A stretch of DNA of 64,000 nucleotides from Nitrososphaerota archaeon (GTDB taxonomy: Archaea > Thermoproteota > EX4484-205 > JAAOZP01): NCBI GenBank assembly GCA_011605725.1, contig JAAOZP010000017.1:32001-96000 (forward strand). Direction: 5' to 3'. Numbering within the stretch: position 1 is the stretch's first letter; the number at the start of each line of letters is the position of its first letter. Both the position numbers and the translations under genes were made by a program. Shown here one piece after another: positions 3,194-48,530 of the stretch. Under the pieces are notes generated by a model that was given only the letters and a program-made list of their open reading frames with translations, ran no database searches and was not told where the DNA came from.

Positions 3194-3292
3194 TTATGAA
3201 GCCTCCTTATAAAAACCGGATTTAAATTTGTTTTCCCGTTTCACCTCCACTGAAAAACTTATTTCATCCCTCCTTATAATGGGAATGATGGA

Positions 3293-3832
3293 ATGTCCTA
3301 TGTGAAAATTGGAGAATGCACCATAAGGCTTGTGAAAGGCGATATTACAAAACTGAGAGCCGACGCGATCGTTAACGCTGCTAACAGTCTGCTTAGACAC
3401 GGAGGAGGCGTAGCGGCTGCAATAGTCCGGGCTGGAGGCAGGATTATTCAGGAGGAGAGCAACAGGATAGTTGAGCAAAGAGGACCCGTGAAAGTTGGGG
3501 AAGCAGTTTACACTACAGCAGGCTCCTTACAGGCGAAGTATGTTATTCACACAGTCGGTCCAAAGATGGGAGAGGGCGATGAGGATGAGAAGCTTCGAAA
3601 CGCCACGCTCAACAGTTTGAAGCTTGCTGAGCAGTTGGGTTTAAGCTCAATAGCATTTCCAGCAATATCCACAGGCGTGTTCGGCTACCCTAAGGATAGG
3701 TGTGCGCAAGTAATGTTAAGGACGATCAGGGAATATGTTTCTTCAGGTGGAAAGATCAGGGAGATCATACTCTGCCTGTATGATGATGAAACATACAGGG
3801 TTTTTGAGGAAACACTCTGGAAAATGTTTTAA
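3293..3832 (+). CDS. Macro domain protein (ADP-ribose binding / O-acetyl-ADP-ribose deacetylase)
   Basis: GDIT, AIVNAAN, GGGVAAAI, HTVGP, AFPAISTGVFGYP motifs. Confidence 0.95.
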   Translation: MSYVKIGECTIRLVKGDITKLRADAIVNAANSLLRHGGGVAAAIVRAGGRIIQEESNRIVEQRGPVKVGEAVYTTAGSLQAKYVIHTVGPKMGEGDEDEKLRNATLNSLKLAEQLGLSSIAFPAISTGVFGYPKDRCAQVMLRTIREYVSSGGKIREIILCLYDDETYRVFEETLWKMF

Positions 3833-4013: not shown

Positions 4014-5099
4014 ATGAGGATTGGGAGAGGCATAAGGGTTAAAAAGCTACTTGGAGAGGGTGTTTTGAGAATACTCAGGACAAGAAACCTTGTTGACAAG
4101 ACTCTCCGGATTAAAAGAAACGGGGATTTTCTAGTCATACCTCTCACCATGGAGGTTCAGAGGGAGGAGTTGAGAAAGCTGGGTGTTGAAGGGGATTTGG
4201 TGGTTGAAGGGTTTGAGGAAGCCACTAGTACGCCGAGCCTGTTTGAAAACCTTAGAAATGTTTTATCTGATGACGATTTAAAGATCGTGCCGCGATCGTA
4301 TGATGTGATTGGCGACGTCTGTATTCTTCAGCTTCCTAAGGAACTGTATGACCGTCGCAAGATAATTGGAGAAGTGTTTCTAAAAACCATGAAGAACATA
4401 AGAATGGTGCTTAACAAGACTGAACCTCTTTCTGGCGAGTATAGGGTTGGTGGATACGAGGTTTTAGCCGGCGAAGGAAGCATGGAAACAGTCTACCGGG
4501 AGCATGGTTGCATTTTTAAACTCGATATTTCAAAAGTCTTCTTCACACCGCGGCTCTCAGCCGAAAGAATAAGAGTGGCCTCACTAGTTAAACCTGGAGA
4601 AGTTGTCTGCGACCTTTTCGCTGGAATAGGGCCTTTCAGCATAATTATTGCGAAGAAAAACCCTAGCGTAAAGGTTCATGCTTGCGACATAAACCCATAC
4701 GCCTATAAATACCTTGTTGAAAACATAAGGTTGAACAGGGTTGAAGACAGGGTTAAGGCGTATCTTGGAGATGCTAGAGAACTGTCTGAGAAGAGTTTGA
4801 AAAACGTTGGTGACAGAATTATTATGAACCTACCGATGAGCTCTGAAATGTATCTTGATGCAGCTAAGAATGCGCTTAAAAAACGCGGGGGAATAGTGCA
4901 TCTTCACGTCTTCCTAGAGAAAGATACTGATCCTGATGAAAAATATGCAAGGATTTCAGAATCGTTCAGAAGGCTTGGCTGCGAAACCAAGCTCTTATCC
5001 TCAAGAAGAATAAGGGAGGTTGCTCCCTTTAAATACCATTGGGGTTTCGACATAGAGGTTAAACCGGAAAACGCTGAGTTACAGGCTTCCAGTTCCTAG
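4014..5099 (+). CDS. trm5: Trm5/Taw22-family tRNA (G37) methyltransferase
   Basis: SYDVIGD, REHGCIFKLD..KVFF.PRL..ER, DLFAGIGPF SAM motif, IIMNLP. Confidence 0.88.
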   Translation: MRIGRGIRVKKLLGEGVLRILRTRNLVDKTLRIKRNGDFLVIPLTMEVQREELRKLGVEGDLVVEGFEEATSTPSLFENLRNVLSDDDLKIVPRSYDVIGDVCILQLPKELYDRRKIIGEVFLKTMKNIRMVLNKTEPLSGEYRVGGYEVLAGEGSMETVYREHGCIFKLDISKVFFTPRLSAERIRVASLVKPGEVVCDLFAGIGPFSIIIAKKNPSVKVHACDINPYAYKYLVENIRLNRVEDRVKAYLGDARELSEKSLKNVGDRIIMNLPMSSEMYLDAAKNALKKRGGIVHLHVFLEKDTDPDEKYARISESFRRLGCETKLLSSRRIREVAPFKYHWGFDIEVKPENAELQASSS

Positions 5100-6172
5100 T
5101 TGGAAGCGGGTTCACCTGTCTGTATCAATAAAGATTTATTTAGGTCTATTTTGACAACAACTCTTCTTCCAACCATTCCAGATACCGCTTCATACTCGGA
5201 GGAATCATTCCCAGCGCATTCAATCACACCCTGGCTTGTTTTAACACGCGTAACTATTTTCCTACCTGCAAAAAGTGTGCTTAAAAGCTCTCCCTCCAAC
5301 AGGCCTTCACCCTCCAGGCTTATTGAAGCATCTTCAGGTCTGAATAGGAGAACCATTTTCCCGTCCACCTTAGACCCATGCCACCTCATCTTAAACTCGC
5401 CGCTTGGAAAGACAAGTCTGATGGTTTCCATGTCTAGGCGTTCAACCCTGGTTTCAAGCCTATTAACGAACCCTAGGAACCTCGCGGTTTTCTCCGTAGG
5501 GGGCTTCACGTACATCGTGTAAGCATCAGCATAAGAATCTATGACTCCGTCGAACATCGTGGCTATAAAGTCGCCCATGGCGAATGCTTCAAGCTGGTCG
5601 TGTGTAACATATATTGTTGTAATGCCCAGCTTCCTCTGAATCGTCCTTATTACGCTGGATATTTCTGCCCTTAGCCCAGCATCTAGAGCAGTAAGAGGTT
5701 CATCCAAGAGCAGTAGCCTAACTTCGAACGCTATCGCCCTCCCTATTGCCACCCTTTGCTGTTGCCCCCTGCTCAGCTCGTGGGGCCGCCTCTCTTCAAG
5801 CCCGGAGAGCTCAACTAGTTCCACAACCTCCTTAACCCGTCTACCGATTTCCTCTGGACTCCTTCCCCTGGCCTCTAATGGGAATGCAATGTTCTCCCTA
5901 ACATTGAGGTTTGGGAATAATGCTGGGCTTTGGAAAACCATCCCGACGTTTCTCTCTCTAGGGGGGAGACCAGTCACGTCTTTCCCGTCGAATAGAATTC
6001 TACCCGAATCAGGCTTAAGAAGCCCCGCGATTATTCTGAGCGTAGTAGTCTTACCGCATCCGCTGGGACCCAGAAGAGCAAGTGTTTTCCCAGGCGGGAT
6101 GCTGAAACTGACGCCCCTTAACGCTTCAAAGTTTCCAAACCTTTTCCTTAGATCCTGTGCTTCAAGCCTCAT
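5096..6172 (-). CDS. thiQ: Thiamine ABC transporter ATP-binding subunit (ThiQ-like)
   Basis: Walker A GPSGCGKT, signature LSRGQQQR, LLLDEP, VTHDQ; operonic with the thiB/thiP-like genes under a TPP riboswitch. Confidence 0.8.
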   Translation of the reverse strand: MRLEAQDLRKRFGNFEALRGVSFSIPPGKTLALLGPSGCGKTTTLRIIAGLLKPDSGRILFDGKDVTGLPPRERNVGMVFQSPALFPNLNVRENIAFPLEARGRSPEEIGRRVKEVVELVELSGLEERRPHELSRGQQQRVAIGRAIAFEVRLLLLDEPLTALDAGLRAEISSVIRTIQRKLGITTIYVTHDQLEAFAMGDFIATMFDGVIDSYADAYTMYVKPPTEKTARFLGFVNRLETRVERLDMETIRLVFPSGEFKMRWHGSKVDGKMVLLFRPEDASISLEGEGLLEGELLSTLFAGRKIVTRVKTSQGVIECAGNDSSEYEAVSGMVGRRVVVKIDLNKSLLIQTGEPASN

Positions 6173-7813
6173 TCAAATCATCCTCACTCTTTCTTTTGAA
6201 AATTGCGACCCGGCTGTTTCAACAATAATTACTATTGAAGTGAGGAGCGAGGTTAAGGCTAACGCCAGGTTAAGCCTTCTGTAATCTATAAGCAGGTTGA
6301 TGGCTACTGGGATCGTCATCAGGTTGAGCGTGCTGAAGAAGGTTGAGAACGTGAAGTCGCTTAAAGACGAGGAGAACGCCATTAGAAGCGTCGCTACCAC
6401 GGCGGGCAGTATGAGCGGTATTTCAACCCTTATAAGCCTGAAGACGACGGTTGCACCATGAGCATCAGCAGCTTCACGGTATTCTTTAACTATTCTGCTC
6501 CAGGATGCTTCGATAATTCTGGTTGCAAGCGGCACGACTACTGCTGACTGGCCTATCACCATGAGCATCCAGCTTCCATATAGCTTGACAATGCCAAAGC
6601 CGTAGGATAGAAGTATTCCGAGGGCAAGTGATGAGCGCGACATTGTTAATGGAAGAACCATAAGTATGCTTACGATTTTCTCTAAAACACCGCCGGCAAG
6701 CTTTGAAGACCAAACTATCGCAACGGAGAGCAGTGTTGAAAAAACTGAGACGATGAGCGCTATCGATAGGCTTTGAAGAAAAATCTCGCTGAGGCTGAGG
6801 CCGAAGCCGAATTTAAAATCGCAAAGCTCCCTGAAAAGCAGCGGCACGGAGTGTCCTGCCTCTAAAAACGGGCCTACAACCGGTATCACGATGGGCGTAA
6901 GCTCGAAAACGCAGATGAACACCACGTATGCAGCCAGAAGAATCCCGCTGAAGCTTGAAAAGAGCTTTGAAACAGGTTCCTCAACATGACGCTCCACTGA
7001 GGAGGGGGCATAGTATTTTTCCCTTAAAAAAATAATTATGATCGACAAGAACAGTGTTGACGATAGTTGAAGCAGAGCTATGGATGATGAGACTGGTTTA
7101 AACCTGGTGGCGTATATCTCGACCTCAAGTGTTGTAAACTTTCCTCCCACGAGCATTGGTGTGGAATATGTTATGAATGAGAATGCGAACACAAGTAGTG
7201 AGGCAGCAACCATGTGCGGCGTTAAAAAGTTTAAGTATACTGTTTTGAAGACTCGTAGAGTTGAGCCTGAGAAAACCCTGGCGGCATCTACAAGGTCTTG
7301 ATCAACAGAGGAAAAGCCCTGTTCAAGAATGAGGGTTGCTAACGGAACATAGTATATTACGTGCGCCAGTATCACAGCCCACATTGAATATAGGATTTTA
7401 ACAACCGGCTCGCCTGTTGCGAAAATTTGGGAAAGAAGAGAGTTGACGATTCCTTTTTCCCCAAGCAACACTATAAGGCCCTCTGCTACTGTGAAAGCAG
7501 GGACAAAGAACGGTGTAAGTAAAACATACTCTAGAATCCTCTTTCCTTTAAACGAATACTTAGCTAGGAAGAATGCTAATGGGAGAGATAGAAGCAGGGT
7601 AATCAGCGTTGAGAAGACGGCTTGCATAAGAGTCCCGTAGAACAGCCTATGAATATAGTCGTCAAGAAGGATATTTACAAGGTCCTTCTGGTTCACGTTG
7701 CCTATTAGAAAGGATAAGGGCATCATGTAGAAGAAGAGCAGGAATAAAAAGAAAGGCGTGAAGATTAGAAGCTTCCTGATGATGCTCATCCGGTTTTTAC
7801 CTCTCTCCTCCAC
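6173..7813 (-). CDS. thiP: Thiamine ABC transporter permease (ThiP-like, two fused permease domains)
   Basis: Two EAA-loop motifs (DAARVFSG, EAADAHGA) and about 12 TM segments; overlaps the upstream binding-protein gene. Confidence 0.8.
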   Translation of the reverse strand: MEERGKNRMSIIRKLLIFTPFFLFLLFFYMMPLSFLIGNVNQKDLVNILLDDYIHRLFYGTLMQAVFSTLITLLLSLPLAFFLAKYSFKGKRILEYVLLTPFFVPAFTVAEGLIVLLGEKGIVNSLLSQIFATGEPVVKILYSMWAVILAHVIYYVPLATLILEQGFSSVDQDLVDAARVFSGSTLRVFKTVYLNFLTPHMVAASLLVFAFSFITYSTPMLVGGKFTTLEVEIYATRFKPVSSSIALLQLSSTLFLSIIIIFLREKYYAPSSVERHVEEPVSKLFSSFSGILLAAYVVFICVFELTPIVIPVVGPFLEAGHSVPLLFRELCDFKFGFGLSLSEIFLQSLSIALIVSVFSTLLSVAIVWSSKLAGGVLEKIVSILMVLPLTMSRSSLALGILLSYGFGIVKLYGSWMLMVIGQSAVVVPLATRIIEASWSRIVKEYREAADAHGATVVFRLIRVEIPLILPAVVATLLMAFSSSLSDFTFSTFFSTLNLMTIPVAINLLIDYRRLNLALALTSLLTSIVIIVETAGSQFSKERVRMI

Positions 7814-8811
7814 TTTTCAAGCCACTGTTCAACGCTTCCCGCAATCTCAGCGTTGAAGGTTACTTTCTCTGAAGGTATTGGAGCGTAGCTAAACAATTCG
7901 ACGGAAGCCTTAGGGTTAACAGGATACATGTATCCTTCAGGTGCAATAAGGTTCTGCGCCTCAGTGCTTAAAACGAACTCTATGAACTTCTTAGCTATTT
8001 CAGGATGCTTAGCGTTCTTAACTAAAGCTATGCCTTCCCTGTAAACAAATCCCTCGACAGCCATGCTTGTAAGGTTAGGAGTCTCCTCGTAACCCACGTC
8101 AGTGTTAAACATGGGTCCAATAGCAACCTCACCTTTTTTCAAAGCCATTATAGAGGAGGTCCAGCCTGAAGGATGAGTCTTAACATTATGCTCAAGCTGT
8201 TTTAGGAAGCTGAATCCTTCTTCAACACCTTTAACGGATAAAACCCATACTAAGAATGATAAGCCTGTTCCGCTTGAAGTCGGATCCTGGTAGAATACTA
8301 GGCCCTTATACTCTGGTCTAAGCAGGTCGTCAAGCCTCTCAGGCGGTGGAAGGCCTAGTCTGGCGAGGATACTGCTGTTGTATGTTATTATAACGTAGCC
8401 TTTATCCATAGGTATAACCGTGCCAGTATGATCCCATATTTCATCCACCGGTATCAGTGAAATATTCTGAGGCCTATACGGCTCTAAAACACCTGCATCT
8501 ATCAAGGTTTTCGCATAAAATTCAGGAATACCCATTATTACATCAGCCACTGGAGAATCTTTTTCAAGGATGAGCTTGTTAGCTATCTCGATTGAACCCA
8601 TGCCGTAGCTTATGAAAGTCACGTTCACGTTAGGATACCTGTTTTTAAACTCTCTCACAAAAGCCGTTGCGAGTCCTGATATTCCCCTAGGCCCGTAAAT
8701 TATCAACGTGTCTTCAAGCCTAGGCTGACTGAGTTGAAGATACAGTATTGAAGACACTATGGCTAGCACTGCAGCTGCCGAAGCCAGCATTATTCTCCAG
8801 CCTATTCTCAT
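7786..8811 (-). CDS. thiB: Thiamine ABC transporter substrate-binding protein (ThiB/TbpA-like)
   Basis: N-terminal anchor; LILEKDSPVADV, QDPTSSGTGLSFL, YMYPVN typical of ThiB/AfuA-type binding proteins; TPP riboswitch upstream; SD GGAGGTG at 8824-8818. Confidence 0.85.
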   Translation of the reverse strand: MRIGWRIMLASAAAVLAIVSSILYLQLSQPRLEDTLIIYGPRGISGLATAFVREFKNRYPNVNVTFISYGMGSIEIANKLILEKDSPVADVIMGIPEFYAKTLIDAGVLEPYRPQNISLIPVDEIWDHTGTVIPMDKGYVIITYNSSILARLGLPPPERLDDLLRPEYKGLVFYQDPTSSGTGLSFLVWVLSVKGVEEGFSFLKQLEHNVKTHPSGWTSSIMALKKGEVAIGPMFNTDVGYEETPNLTSMAVEGFVYREGIALVKNAKHPEIAKKFIEFVLSTEAQNLIAPEGYMYPVNPKASVELFSYAPIPSEKVTFNAEIAGSVEQWLEKWRREVKTG

Positions 8812-8856
8812 TTATCCCACCTCCTTTCATACTGGGCGGTAGAAGAAGGAGCGTCG

Positions 8857-8955
8857 GGTAGCTTCCCTACGCCGGTATTATCCGGATCAGGTTAATAGGG
8901 GTCGACCCCCATGCAGGGTCCTCTCAGCCGGGCTTCCCCAGCTCCCCCAGCTACC
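8857..8955 (-). ncRNA. TPP (thi-box) riboswitch aptamer
   Basis: Minus strand reads GGUAGCU-GGGGGA-GCUGGG-GAAG-CCCGGC-UGAGA-G-GACCC-UGCAUGG-GGGUC-GACCCC-UAUUA-ACCUGAU-CCGG-AUAAUA-CCGG-CGUAGGGA-AGCUACC. It contains GCUGAGA, ACCUGAUC, UAAU and GCG.AGGGA, with intact P1-P5 pairings. Confidence 0.95.
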
Positions 8956-8983
8956 GCCGTTAAGCTCCCTTATGAAACAATCG

Positions 8984-30575: not shown

Positions 30576-30703
30576 TTCTCTTCACACTCTACTACCTATA
30601 CTCCTTTTTAAACCATTTAAAAAAGGTAATGGGCGGAGCCTCCTAGCTTACCAACCCCCCCTAGCCGTCCTTTAAAAACCTTATAAGACAATGGTTCAGC
30701 AAG

Positions 30704-31225
30704 CTAAATACCCAGTAGGCTTCTAAGCATTTCTGAAACAGTCCTACTTCTAACCGTTTTCCCGGAAAGAATCTTTGAAGCCAGGTTCATCCCCCTGTTT
30801 GGTTTGAAAAGCCTGTAGGAGAAAGTGGCGACCCCCTTATCGGGATAGGTTGAAACCCTGACTCCAACCCCCTCAACATAAAAGTTTTCACCCATTCCTT
30901 GAAGATGCTCGATACTACCCTTGACAGTAAAGTAGACTTCAACATAATCGCATAATTCAAGAATAGTGTTAACAATACTGTCAGCGATCAACGGGCTTCT
31001 TAAACCGGTGAAATGGAGTGAAACGTGAAGGGTTTTCTCAAGCTCCTCCTCATGGAAAAGCGTCATGCTGAAACCCTCGTAAACCTCCGTCCGGAGCCTT
31101 GTAGAAACATGTTTAGAAATCTTCTTAAGAGCTTCGATAAGCAATCGCCAGTATCCGGCTTGCTCCTTGCCAAAATAAGCCTCCACCCTCATGAAATACT
31201 CCTGTTTCTCCGGCTGGCTGGCCAT
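30704..31225 (-). CDS. Hypothetical protein upstream of crenactin
   Basis: 173-aa ORF with typical codon usage and alternating alpha/beta pattern; no family recognised. Confidence 0.7.
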   Translation of the reverse strand: MASQPEKQEYFMRVEAYFGKEQAGYWRLLIEALKKISKHVSTRLRTEVYEGFSMTLFHEEELEKTLHVSLHFTGLRSPLIADSIVNTILELCDYVEVYFTVKGSIEHLQGMGENFYVEGVGVRVSTYPDKGVATFSYRLFKPNRGMNLASKILSGKTVRSRTVSEMLRSLLGI

Positions 31226-31278
31226 CAGCCTGATGACTCTAACAGAAGGAGATTTAAAACATTATCTGCACCATCTAC

Positions 31279-46241: not shown

Positions 46242-47303
46242 TTAAAAATCCCATTCAACAGGCACTTCCCTGTCTTCAATCGCAGACCGGTGGATTGCTT
46301 CAAGTATGGCCTGAACTCTTAACCCCTCGATTGCTGGAGAAAACAGGGGCCTGCCTTCTTTAACCGACTCTATGAACTTTCGAATCCTCATCTTGTATAT
46401 GTCTACGTTAGGCATCTGGTCCTGTGGCCTAACAGTCACCCTAACACCTTGAATCTCCCTGTATACTTCGAAAGGATCCAGCTGGGCTCCGCCGTTTGTC
46501 CCAAGTAATTCAACGCTAAACCTGTCTCTATCTATGAATGAAGCCCAGTTCGTCTCAAGAAGCATTGTGAAATCATTCTTAAACTTAACCATGCCGAAAG
46601 CGTTGTCTTCAACCTCAAACTCCGTCGGGTTCCATGTTCCACCCCAGCAGCCTCGCCGGGCCATTTCAGGATTATTCCCAAACTTTGTGTAAAAAACTCC
46701 GAACGCTGATTTAGGCTTAGGAAAGTTCATAATGTACATCGCGAAGTCGACAGCGTAACAACCTATGTCGAGCAACGGGCCTGCGCCTGCAAGCGTCTTA
46801 CTAAAGAAAGTTTTTCTCGGAGGTATCCCCCATCTTCTCAAAGCAAGTGCCCTGCAATAGTAGATTTCACCAAGCTCGCCAGCGTTAACCATGTTCCTCA
46901 GCATGTTTAAGTCGGGCCTGAACCTAGTTTGGAAGCCGACGATAAGAATCCTACCTGTCTTCCTAGAGGCCTCATACATTTCCAACGCGTCCCTAAGGTT
47001 GCCAGCCATAGGTTTCTCCGTCAAAACATGCGCACCAGCCTTCAACGCTGCGACTGTAGGATCCTTGTGGAACATGTTCGGAGTGCAAACGCTCACTGCG
47101 TCAAGCTCCTCCTTTTCAAACATACTGTTGAAATCCGTATAATACCTTGGTATTTTAAAATCCTCAGCTAAGCTTCTCGCAGCAGCAGCATCAATATCAG
47201 CACACGCAGCAATCTCAACATCATTCATCTCCTTGTAGTGTGGAACATGAGTTCCCCTTGCTATTCCGCCGCAACCAACTATCCCAACTCTGATCCTGCC
47301 CAT
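46242..47303 (-). CDS. Gfo/Idh/MocA family oxidoreductase
   Basis: GIVGCGGI, VCTPN..H, EKPMA, GPLLDIGCY. Confidence 0.92.
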   Translation of the reverse strand: MGRIRVGIVGCGGIARGTHVPHYKEMNDVEIAACADIDAAAARSLAEDFKIPRYYTDFNSMFEKEELDAVSVCTPNMFHKDPTVAALKAGAHVLTEKPMAGNLRDALEMYEASRKTGRILIVGFQTRFRPDLNMLRNMVNAGELGEIYYCRALALRRWGIPPRKTFFSKTLAGAGPLLDIGCYAVDFAMYIMNFPKPKSAFGVFYTKFGNNPEMARRGCWGGTWNPTEFEVEDNAFGMVKFKNDFTMLLETNWASFIDRDRFSVELLGTNGGAQLDPFEVYREIQGVRVTVRPQDQMPNVDIYKMRIRKFIESVKEGRPLFSPAIEGLRVQAILEAIHRSAIEDREVPVEWDF

Positions 47304-47654
47304 TTCAACCTGGCGGGGAAAGAGGTTTTTAATAAGGATTTAGTTGAACCATCTTTTTACGGCAGGCAGATTCTAACGTCTCTCCGCATTATGGAGAAGG
47401 TTTCGGGTTCACATGTTTAAAGCCTGTTCTATCGGTTTAAACAAGTTTAAAAATAATCCCTTCATAAGCATTTCTGCAACATTTGCTCTCATTATAATAT
47501 TCATGCTGGAGCTCAGTCGGCGGTTGCAAGAATGATGGAAAGGCTTCCCCAGCATATGGTTATTTTTCATGTAGGCGAAGAAACCGATAAAATGTGAATA
47601 TTCTCATGCAAATCAGTTCTTTAAACTTTTTAATACAGCATTTTAATGGATCAT

Positions 47655-47712
47655 ATCGATGAGGAATGGAGGTGATCTCTGAATAGTGATGAGAAACTCC
47701 ATTCTGACTCGA
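47655..47712 (+). ncRNA. C/D box sRNA
   Basis: Box C ATGAGGA 47659-65; 13-nt guide ATGGAGGTGATCT; D' CTGA 47679-82; C' GTGATGA 47686-92; 11-nt guide GAAACTCCATT; D CTGA 47704-07. Flanking TCGA/TCGA stem; TTTTAATA TATA-like element about 25 nt upstream. Confidence 0.75.
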
Positions 47713-47714
47713 GT

Positions 47715-48530
47715 TTAAGACGGGTTTCTGAAGGACCGAATTATTTCTTCTCCAAGGCTTCTTGAACACGCGGCTACAACCGGGCTTTTCGAGACGGGCA
47801 GCAGTTTAACATTGAGATCCTCCGCTTCCGCGTTCAACACAACTCCTCCAGCCTCCTTCACTATTAAGAACGCTGCTGCAAAGTCAAGGCTCCTTAGAAA
47901 ACCCCTTAGGTCAACGAAGGCGTCTGCTGCTCCCGATGCGACTAAACATAGTTCAATCGCGTCAGACCCTAATGATCTAACGTGCCTAGCCTTCTCAATT
48001 ATGCTTGACATCCTGCTAACGTAGCCCGGCAGTCTCCCCCGAATGTTCAAGTCAACAGATATCAGAGCCTCCTCGATTCTTCCCACATTTGAAACCCTTA
48101 GTCTATGTCCGTTTAAGAACGCTCCTCGATTCTTCTCAGCATAGTAAAGGTCACCGGTTAAAAGATTGATAACACCGGAGCACACTGTGTCGCTAAGATC
48201 TTCCCCTTCTGCAACCCCTATTGAACAGCTGTAGCACGGGTATCCTCTCGAAGCGTTAACACTCCCGTCAACAGGGTCGACGATTATTAGGGGAGGCCCC
48301 CCGCTTCCAATCTCCACCACCCCTGATTCTTCACTAACTAACGTGGCATCTTTGAAGAAAATTCTTGTTGCCTCGAGAATCATTTCTTCAGCAACCTTAT
48401 CCACCATGAAGGTCTGGTCGCCGTAAGGGTTTATCGCGACTCTCTCACGGATCGAACGCTCATCCATCTCCTTAATCTTTTCAAAACATTTTCTCAACGT
48501 CGTCCTAACGTACTTAAAATACTCGTCCAT
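47715..48530 (-). CDS. suhB: Inositol monophosphatase / FBPase (SuhB family)
   Basis: VSEESG, VDPVDGS.N, RSLGS, LDFAAA.LIVKEAGG. Confidence 0.9.
   Translation of the reverse strand: MDEYFKYVRTTLRKCFEKIKEMDERSIRERVAINPYGDQTFMVDKVAEEMILEATRIFFKDATLVSEESGVVEIGSGGPPLIIVDPVDGSVNASRGYPCYSCSIGVAEGEDLSDTVCSGVINLLTGDLYYAEKNRGAFLNGHRLRVSNVGRIEEALISVDLNIRGRLPGYVSRMSSIIEKARHVRSLGSDAIELCLVASGAADAFVDLRGFLRSLDFAAAFLIVKEAGGVVLNAEAEDLNVKLLPVSKSPVVAACSRSLGEEIIRSFRNPS

What the first reader, a model, noticed from the sequence alone, without database searches (positions are those of the whole stretch)
47655..47712. C/D-box sRNA whose guide matches the 16S anti-Shine-Dalgarno tail and can be masked by its own second guide
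Seen in sequence: boxes C, D', C' and D have canonical archaeal spacing and an upstream TATA-like element. The D' guide AUGGAGGUGAUCU contains GGAGGUGAUC, the complement of the conserved 16S 3' end GAUCACCUCC. The D guide GAAACUCCAUU is complementary to AAUGGAG, spanning the end of box C and the D' guide, so the RNA can fold on itself. Established: the D+5 rule directs 2'-O-methylation. Inference: it would target the C of GAUC (about E. coli C1533) next to the anti-SD. It could instead act as a chaperone for 16S 3'-end maturation or as a self-masked anti-SD decoy affecting translation initiation. I do not know of a described archaeal sRNA with this arrangement.
Basis: partly seen in the sequence, partly recalled or inferred. 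Interest (0 to 1): 0.75.

Follow-up and report, generated by a model that had tools for sequence, protein, structure and literature searches.

The report
Self-folding guide RNA for 16S tail
This is a real, conserved small archaeal methylation-guide RNA built to mark the mRNA-binding tail of 16S ribosomal RNA; that kind of RNA is already proven in Nanoarchaeum, and only its conserved habit of folding over its own ribosome-binding-site-like sequence is unusual.

Summary
Observation confirmed: boxes C/D'/C'/D at 47659-47707 in a Ca. Brockarchaeota genome (0/100 shuffles), found in 14 of 16 congeners (12 intact), each with a TATA-like element about 30 nt upstream. The D' guide makes 10 Watson-Crick pairs plus one G-U with the genome's own 16S tail, placing +5 on C1533. 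The tail is not followed by AUU.

Targeting this tail is known. N. equitans sR13 and sR20 direct verified Am1534 and Gm1530, and Cm1533 was measured in I. hospitalis, guide unknown (PMC5389701). The same D' module recurs across archaea and co-varies with the tail. The S. acidocaldarius copy is a published L7Ae-bound RNA with no target assigned. I. hospitalis sR305, conserved in 3/3 Ignicoccus genomes, is a candidate for the missing guide.

The guide-guide helix is conserved, with one compensatory pair. But the D guide also fits one 23S site (about E. coli 945; chance 3-9%), so masking may be partly a by-product. Decoy, mini-ORF and acetylation-adaptor readings are disfavoured. Expression in this genome is untested. 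The scan has already found such guides on other DNA (at least 16 genomes). Verdict: new member of a known kind.

The parts
47627..47635 (+). TATA-like promoter element about 30 nt upstream of box C
   Evidence: TTTTAW at -29 to -33 in 14 of 15 genus copies, arising from different sequence in the two clades; kept here although the upstream macro-domain gene of relatives lies 44 kb away in this genome. Function inferred.
47656..47659 (+). 5' strand of terminal stem (pairs with 47709-47712)
   Evidence: MFE fold; flanks are variable among homologues
47659..47665 (+). Box C (AUGAGGA)
   Evidence: conserved in alignment A1
47666..47678 (+). D' guide; 47668-47677 antisense to the 16S 3' tail; +5 base G47674 opposite C1533 (G000:C9:85041)
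   Evidence: the 10-nt core is invariant in 13 of 15 genus copies
47679..47682 (+). Box D' (CUGA)
47686..47692 (+). Box C' (GUGAUGA)
47693..47703 (+). D guide; pairs in cis with 47665-47671; candidate weak target in 23S at G000:C9:86283-86293 (+5 on C9:86287, about E. coli position 945, base of H39)
47704..47707 (+). Box D (CUGA; CCGA in 4 homologues)
47715..48530 (-). Convergent inositol monophosphatase (suhB-like) gene; its stop lies 8 nt from box D; linked to the sRNA in all genus copies
   Evidence: Pfam PF00459 E 1e-35; synteny
46242..47303 (-). Divergent Gfo/Idh/MocA oxidoreductase gene (context only, not present here in relatives)

Best explanation
An independently transcribed box C/D sRNA of about 55 nt. 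With L7Ae, Nop5 and fibrillarin it uses its D' guide to direct 2'-O-methylation of C1533, the C of GAUC just 5' of the anti-SD core, most likely on pre-30S particles. When free, the RNA rests as a hairpin: the D guide extends the k-turn stem over the GGAG part of the D' guide and leaves a GUGA toehold open. The 16S tail can still open it (net -5 to -6 kcal/mol) and so free the D guide, which may act as a weak second guide for 23S G~945. Shown here: boxes, conservation, complementarity to the organism's own tail, guide-tail co-variation, machinery genes. Inferred: transcription, RNP assembly, methylation, timing, and any purpose of the masking.
For: Boxes and guide conserved in 14/16 congeners while flanks diverge. 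10 WC pairs including +5, meeting the 9-bp criterion of PMC4644070. With 0-4 nt allowed between GAUC and box D', 34 of 35 matches have exactly 1 nt, the C1533 register. Guide follows target: Sulfolobaceae tails have A where ours has C (8/8) and their guides have U where ours has G (7/7). Archaeal pattern hits mostly carry a box C upstream, bacterial hits do not. Cm1533 was measured by RiboMeth-seq in I. hospitalis; Am1534 and Gm1530 are sRNA-guided in N. equitans (PMC5389701). The S. acidocaldarius look-alike is a real L7Ae-enriched 54-nt RNA (PMC5539422 Table S1). Fibrillarin, Nop5 and L7Ae genes are present. Two boxes with one guide suffice for specific methylation in vitro (PMC1635284).
Against: Two congeners (G016, G003) carry degenerate copies, so the RNA is dispensable in some lineages. 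The S. solfataricus 16S modification table lists no Cm at the equivalent position 1490; but Sulfolobaceae copies lack a clear box D, the flexible tail is hard to see by cryo-EM (my inference), and I did not confirm the module in S. solfataricus itself. The self-hairpin costs about 5 kcal/mol (70 C) to 14 kcal/mol (37 C) to open in a protein-free model.
Confidence: 0.75

Rival explanations
1. Ordinary double-guide sRNA (16S C1533 plus 23S G~945), like N. equitans sR20. The guide-guide helix is largely a by-product of a purine-rich guide lying next to a pyrimidine-rich one. This is a variant of the best explanation, not an exclusive alternative.
For: All 11 D-guide variants pair without mismatch over positions 1-9 with one 23S site that is invariant in 9 genomes; it is the top D-guide site in all 7 intact cases with rRNA available. 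I derived the target pattern from the guide variation before searching. The L229 variant makes 10 bp with one G-U. A perfect antisense to this site would already self-pair at -7.0 kcal/mol, and 7.7% of random rRNA-antisense 11-mers pair with the D' guide as well as ours does.
Against: Chance of such a site in shuffled rRNA is 3-9%. In this genome the duplex has 7 WC + 2 G-U and a mismatch, below the 9-WC criterion. No methylation is predicted near this position in seven archaea. No copy is the perfect 23S complement, and observed variants rank at the top for cis pairing among 23S-compatible guides. A compensatory A-U/G-C pair changed at least twice on the tree, though it lies next to the k-turn, where stem extension is expected.
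Confidence: 0.4
2. Non-methylating chaperone or checkpoint: the RNP holds the 16S 3' tail during 30S maturation and releases it later; methylation is incidental or absent.
For: A checkpoint role was proposed for Neq sR13. Sulfolobaceae keep the D' guide and k-loop in 14/15 genomes without a clear box D, and no Cm1490 is listed for S. solfataricus.
Against: The +5 register is fixed. All four boxes are intact here. This genome has KsgA/Dim1, unlike Nanoarchaeum. The guide does not reach past the tail into the spacer. The modification itself exists in I. hospitalis.
Confidence: 0.12
3. Anti-SD decoy that binds mature 30S subunits and tunes translation initiation, switched by the self-hairpin.
For: The guide is a perfect 10-nt SD. 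About 20% of long ORFs in this genome have an SD 5-mer 6-11 nt before the start, so the anti-SD is in use. The hairpin leaves a toehold open.
Against: The GGAG core is predicted 97% paired. A decoy needs neither four boxes nor a fixed register. Strong masking is not general among archaeal C1533 guides (-1 to -7 kcal/mol outside this genus against -9 to -11 in it).
Confidence: 0.05
4. The element is a Shine-Dalgarno sequence plus start codon (GUG/AUG inside box C') of a small ORF.
For: SD-to-start spacing is plausible and a 10-codon frame is open here.
Against: The frame length varies from 6 to at least 50 codons, and a 1-nt indel shifts it in one clade so that it stops in box D. It does not explain boxes C, D' and D.
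Confidence: 0.02
5. SNORD13/snR45-like adaptor guiding Nat10 acetylation in helix 45.
For: It binds next to h45. S. solfataricus has non-CCG ac4C in h45, for which adaptors were suggested.
Against: No Nat10/TmcA domain above cut-off in any of 17 genus genomes. SNORD13 uses 5' and internal antisense elements (18S-A pairs with nt 1854-1859), whereas here there is a single canonical +5 guide and no second h45 complementarity.
Confidence: 0.02

Closest known systems
Nanoarchaeum equitans C/D sRNAs sR13 (Am1534 + Am1408) and sR20 (Gm1530 + 23S Cm1920); PMC5389701, sequences in PMC4644070
   Same: Four-box archaeal sRNA with a guide antisense to the 16S 3' tail. sR20 also uses the D' guide and couples it to a 23S site.
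   Different: Register is C1533, not A1534 or G1530. The second guide pairs with the first and has at best a weak 23S target. The host has KsgA/Dim1. Not homologous by the second guide.
Cm1533 of Ignicoccus hospitalis 16S (PMC5389701: 'presently unknown sRNA'); candidate guide IHO sR305 identified here
   Same: Same predicted nucleotide. sR305 has an 11-bp D' guide in the same register if its D' box is the variant GGCU; conserved in 3/3 Ignicoccus genomes.
   Different: Variant internal boxes; D guide variable, without strong self-pairing (-0.8 to -5.1 kcal/mol).
S. acidocaldarius 'K-turn sRNA' 1400450-1400505, co-transcribed with Sac-sR15 (PMC5539422 Table S1)
   Same: Same D' guide, box D' and box C' module; expressed and L7Ae-bound; its guide matches that species' own tail.
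   Different: No clear box D, tandem with sR15, no target assigned in the paper, no conserved masking helix.
SNORD13/U13 and snR45 (PMC9670809)
   Same: Box C/D RNA pairing near the SSU 3' end; pre-SNORD13 masks its own antisense elements.
   Different: Acetylation guide needing NAT10, with split antisense elements; here a canonical +5 guide and no Nat10 in the genus.

Membership tests
Archaeal box C/D methylation-guide sRNA | Boxes C, D', C', D in order with 10-13 nt guides | tested here: met
Archaeal box C/D methylation-guide sRNA | At least 9 consecutive WC pairs with rRNA or tRNA including the +5 position (D' guide) | tested here: met
   10 WC + 1 G-U with own 16S tail
Archaeal box C/D methylation-guide sRNA | Second (D) guide with a canonical target (double-guide type) | tested here: inconclusive
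   23S site 7 WC + 2 G-U here, up to 9 WC in relatives; chance 3-9%; no tRNA or spacer target above 6 WC; the 3' third of own 23S is not assembled, relatives' 23S used instead
Archaeal box C/D methylation-guide sRNA | Boxes and guide conserved in relatives | tested here: met
   14/16 congeners, 12 intact
Archaeal box C/D methylation-guide sRNA | L7Ae, Nop5 and fibrillarin encoded | tested here: met
Archaeal box C/D methylation-guide sRNA | Expressed, bound by core proteins, target methylated in vivo | not testable with these tools
Existing Rfam family | Covariance-model score above gathering threshold | tested here: not met
   No Rfam hit at the locus, nor at eight look-alike loci apart from the neighbouring sR15 and a tRNA
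Neq sR13-type KsgA-bypass checkpoint RNA | Second guide on h44 (1408) and host lacking RsmA/Dim1 | tested here: not met
   No h44 complementarity; RrnaAD gene present
SNORD13/snR45 acetylation guides | Nat10 partner and split antisense elements around h45 | tested here: not met

The most novel reading that the evidence does not exclude
The guide-guide helix is a selected gate. It hides the SD core so that an abundant SD-bearing sRNA does not jam mature 30S subunits, opens only by toehold invasion of the pre-16S tail, and then releases the D guide for 23S G~945: a self-gated, ordered double guide that couples small- and large-subunit maturation.
Probability: 0.15. Interest if true: 0.7.

Novelty: new member of a known kind. 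Interest (0 to 1): 0.38.

Why it matters
Guides against the anti-SD region are established, so the RNA itself is not surprising. Two things give it modest value. First, it belongs to a widespread, register-fixed C1533 guide module that supplies candidates for two published loose ends: the unknown guide of Cm1533 in I. hospitalis (sR305) and the unassigned L7Ae-bound RNA behind sR15 in genetically tractable S. acidocaldarius. Both can be tested directly. Second, the conserved self-masking offers a simple model for how a cell might tolerate an RNA carrying a perfect Shine-Dalgarno sequence.

Tried and rejected
Rfam scan: no family at the locus. AUU after the 16S end: absent. tRNA, 5' leader and ITS targets for either guide: none above 6 WC; 5S rRNA was not searched. 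Mini-ORF: frameshifted among homologues. Nat10 adaptor: enzyme not found in the genus. Homologues in the other three families of the order: none found in the 9 genomes searched, 57-93% complete. Masking as a general property of C1533 guides: not seen outside this genus. Precedent for Gm at 23S ~945: none among seven archaea. The U-to-C change at D-guide position 6 first looked like evidence for the 23S target over cis pairing, but it keeps cis pairing in a shifted register, so it does not discriminate. A sigma-70 promoter scan was uninformative for an archaeon. One search used a mis-registered structure and was redone. Two literature searches for guide-guide pairing in archaeal sRNAs found no direct precedent, which is not proof of absence. 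A reverse scan for other sRNAs in this genome gave mostly chance hits, so no within-genome baseline for guide-guide pairing could be built.

Full report
OBSERVATION. The element is present as described: box C 47659-65, a 13-nt D' guide, box D' 47679-82, a 3-nt loop, box C' 47686-92, an 11-nt D guide and box D 47704-07. It lies between a divergent Gfo/Idh/MocA gene and a convergent inositol monophosphatase gene. The four-box pattern is unique in the window and absent from 100 shuffles. It is the best of only three strict four-box matches in the 2.2-Mb genome. Rfam has no family for it. Loci identical to those of congeners are titled Candidatus Brockarchaeota; the phylum search places S. acidocaldarius in the same phylum. 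Fibrillarin, Nop5 and L7Ae are encoded.

THE D' GUIDE. The genome's 16S gene (C9:83551-85048) ends in the usual tail followed by UAC, not AUU. The guide makes 10 Watson-Crick pairs plus a terminal G-U, and the fifth base upstream of box D' faces 16S nt 1491, the E. coli C1533 equivalent. A 10-mer match occurs in 0.17% of shuffled rRNAs. No tRNA or spacer site exceeds 6 WC pairs. Fourteen of 16 congeners have the RNA at the same place beside suhB. Twelve keep the 10-nt guide core unchanged while flanks diverge; two (G016, G003) are degenerate. A TTTTAW element sits 29-33 nt before box C in 14 of 15 copies. In one clade it overlaps the stop codon of an upstream macro-domain gene, in the other it lies beyond it. 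In this genome it stayed with the sRNA although the macro gene is 44 kb away. This argues for an own promoter (inference).

WIDER FAMILY. The module guide + box D' + box C' occurs in 14/15 Sulfolobaceae genomes and in Thermofilaceae, Desulfurococcales, Njordarchaeota, Micrarchaeota and others. Archaeal hits mostly have a box C upstream; bacterial hits do not and look like chance. With 0-4 nt allowed before box D', 34 of 35 matches have one, the C1533 register (kin are not independent and a few hits lie in ORFs). The guide follows its target: Sulfolobaceae tails carry A where ours has C (8/8) and their guides carry U where ours has G (7/7). The S. acidocaldarius copy is listed in PMC5539422 Table S1 as an L7Ae-enriched 54-nt 'K-turn sRNA ... 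could be C/D box sRNA', with no target. Second guides differ by lineage.

WHAT IS KNOWN. PMC5389701 shows by MS and RiboMeth-seq that N. equitans 16S carries Am1534 (sR13) and Gm1530 (sR20), and that I. hospitalis carries Cm1533, guided by 'a presently unknown sRNA'. It is the only paper in the library with the term Cm1533. I saw sR13 and sR20 in the PMC4644070 supplement first (listed there without these targets); earlier scan notes then pointed me to the 2017 paper, which I read. The same supplement holds IHO sR305 (no prediction). It has an 11-nt perfect complement to the I. hospitalis tail, and a variant internal pair GGCU/UGGCC that places +5 on C1533. It is conserved in all three Ignicoccus genomes searched. 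This is a candidate, not a proof.

THE SELF-PAIRING. The MFE fold pairs 47663-71 with 47697-705 (z -2.9). Across 15 copies the 7-bp core is 91% paired, with one A-U/G-C compensatory pair in three sequences (3 of 500 shuffles reach that cell count; relatedness is not controlled). On a suhB tree that pair changed at least twice. It is the pair next to the k-turn, where stem extension is ordinary. In a protein-free model the GGAG core is 97% paired, a GUGA toehold is about 90% open, and 16S-tail binding remains favourable by 5-6 kcal/mol. Cis pairing of -9 to -11 kcal/mol in this genus is stronger than in other lineages (-1 to -7).

THE D GUIDE. Its variation consists of transitions only. All 11 variants are compatible, through G-U pairs, with a single 23S site that is invariant in nine genomes (own C9:86283-93, +5 on C9:86287). 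Counting on the alignment in PMC4644070 puts it near E. coli 945 at the base of H39 (approximate). The chance of such a site is 9% over 9 positions and 3% over 10. Here the duplex is 7 WC + 2 G-U, under the usual criterion, and no precedent was found. Cis pairing explains most of the same variation, so the two constraints cannot be separated. No copy is the perfect 23S complement, and the observed variants are the best self-pairers among 23S-compatible guides, which hints that both act. I put the 23S target at about 40%.

MECHANISM AND RIVALS. Most likely (0.75) a methylation guide for C1533 that rests as a hairpin and is opened by the 16S tail or by RNP assembly. A pure chaperone role (0.12) is suggested by the box-D-less Sulfolobaceae copies and by the lack of Cm1490 in the S. 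solfataricus table. Against it are the fixed register and the presence of KsgA. A decoy (0.05) is opposed by masking and register. A mini-ORF fails on a frameshift. A SNORD13-like role fails on the absence of Nat10 in 17 genomes. Expression could not be checked.

VERDICT. Real and conserved; a new member of a known kind. The scan has already noted anti-SD guides in at least 16 genomes, once with self-pairing (not checked by me). The self-gating reading would be a new variant but has a probability of about 0.15. Interest 0.38.

Noticed in passing
L249 (G180:C1:507253-507275, minus), L250, L251: I. hospitalis sR305 and its orthologues in two other Ignicoccus genomes carry an 11-12 nt guide to the 16S tail before a variant D' box (GGCU), with +5 on C1533: candidate for the published unknown guide of Cm1533.
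   Followed up: partly
L051:1486-1540 (S. acidocaldarius 1400450-1400505) and L042-L052, L244-L246: Sulfolobaceae keep a half sRNA (D' guide + k-loop, no clear box D) in tandem behind sR15, between sua5 and a nuoB-like gene; its guide matches their variant 16S tail. Published as L7Ae-bound, without target.
   Followed up: partly
PMC4644070 supplement: Thermoproteus tenax sR141 also has a D guide complementary to the anti-SD tail.
   Followed up: no
L038:1501-1526, L039:1501-1526: In family f28 the same D' guide doubles as a possible SD for a long ORF whose start codon lies in box C'.
   Followed up: no
L010 (G016) and L016 (G003): Two congeners carry decayed copies, with mutations in both the guide and the internal boxes.
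   Followed up: partly
whole genome: Very few canonical four-box C/D sRNAs are detectable in this hot-spring archaeon (3 strict matches). Probable further ones with degenerate halves lie at C11:56159 (minus) and C1:174986 (plus), plus a 66-nt tRNA-Trp intron at C11:37283-37422.
   Followed up: partly
window 3253-3832, 30703-31261, 47655-48530: The macro-domain gene and the gene that flank the sRNA-suhB pair in relatives lie 44 kb and 17 kb away here; the sRNA-suhB pair stayed together through rearrangements on both sides.
   Followed up: partly
window 8847-8958 (minus): TPP riboswitch (Rfam RF00059, 72 bits) directly upstream of an ABC transporter operon (5095-8811).
   Followed up: no
genus-wide: No Nat10/TmcA RNA acetyltransferase above cut-off in any of 17 genomes of this thermophilic genus.
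   Followed up: no
L053, L063, L067 (G010): Genome G010 holds additional, foreign rRNA operons (one clearly bacterial): bin contamination.
   Followed up: no
G000:C9:86643-87277: Own 23S gene is cut at the contig end and matches the model only in pieces after position 1783; relatives G007 and G013 have 23S genes about 750 nt longer, possibly with an intron.
   Followed up: no
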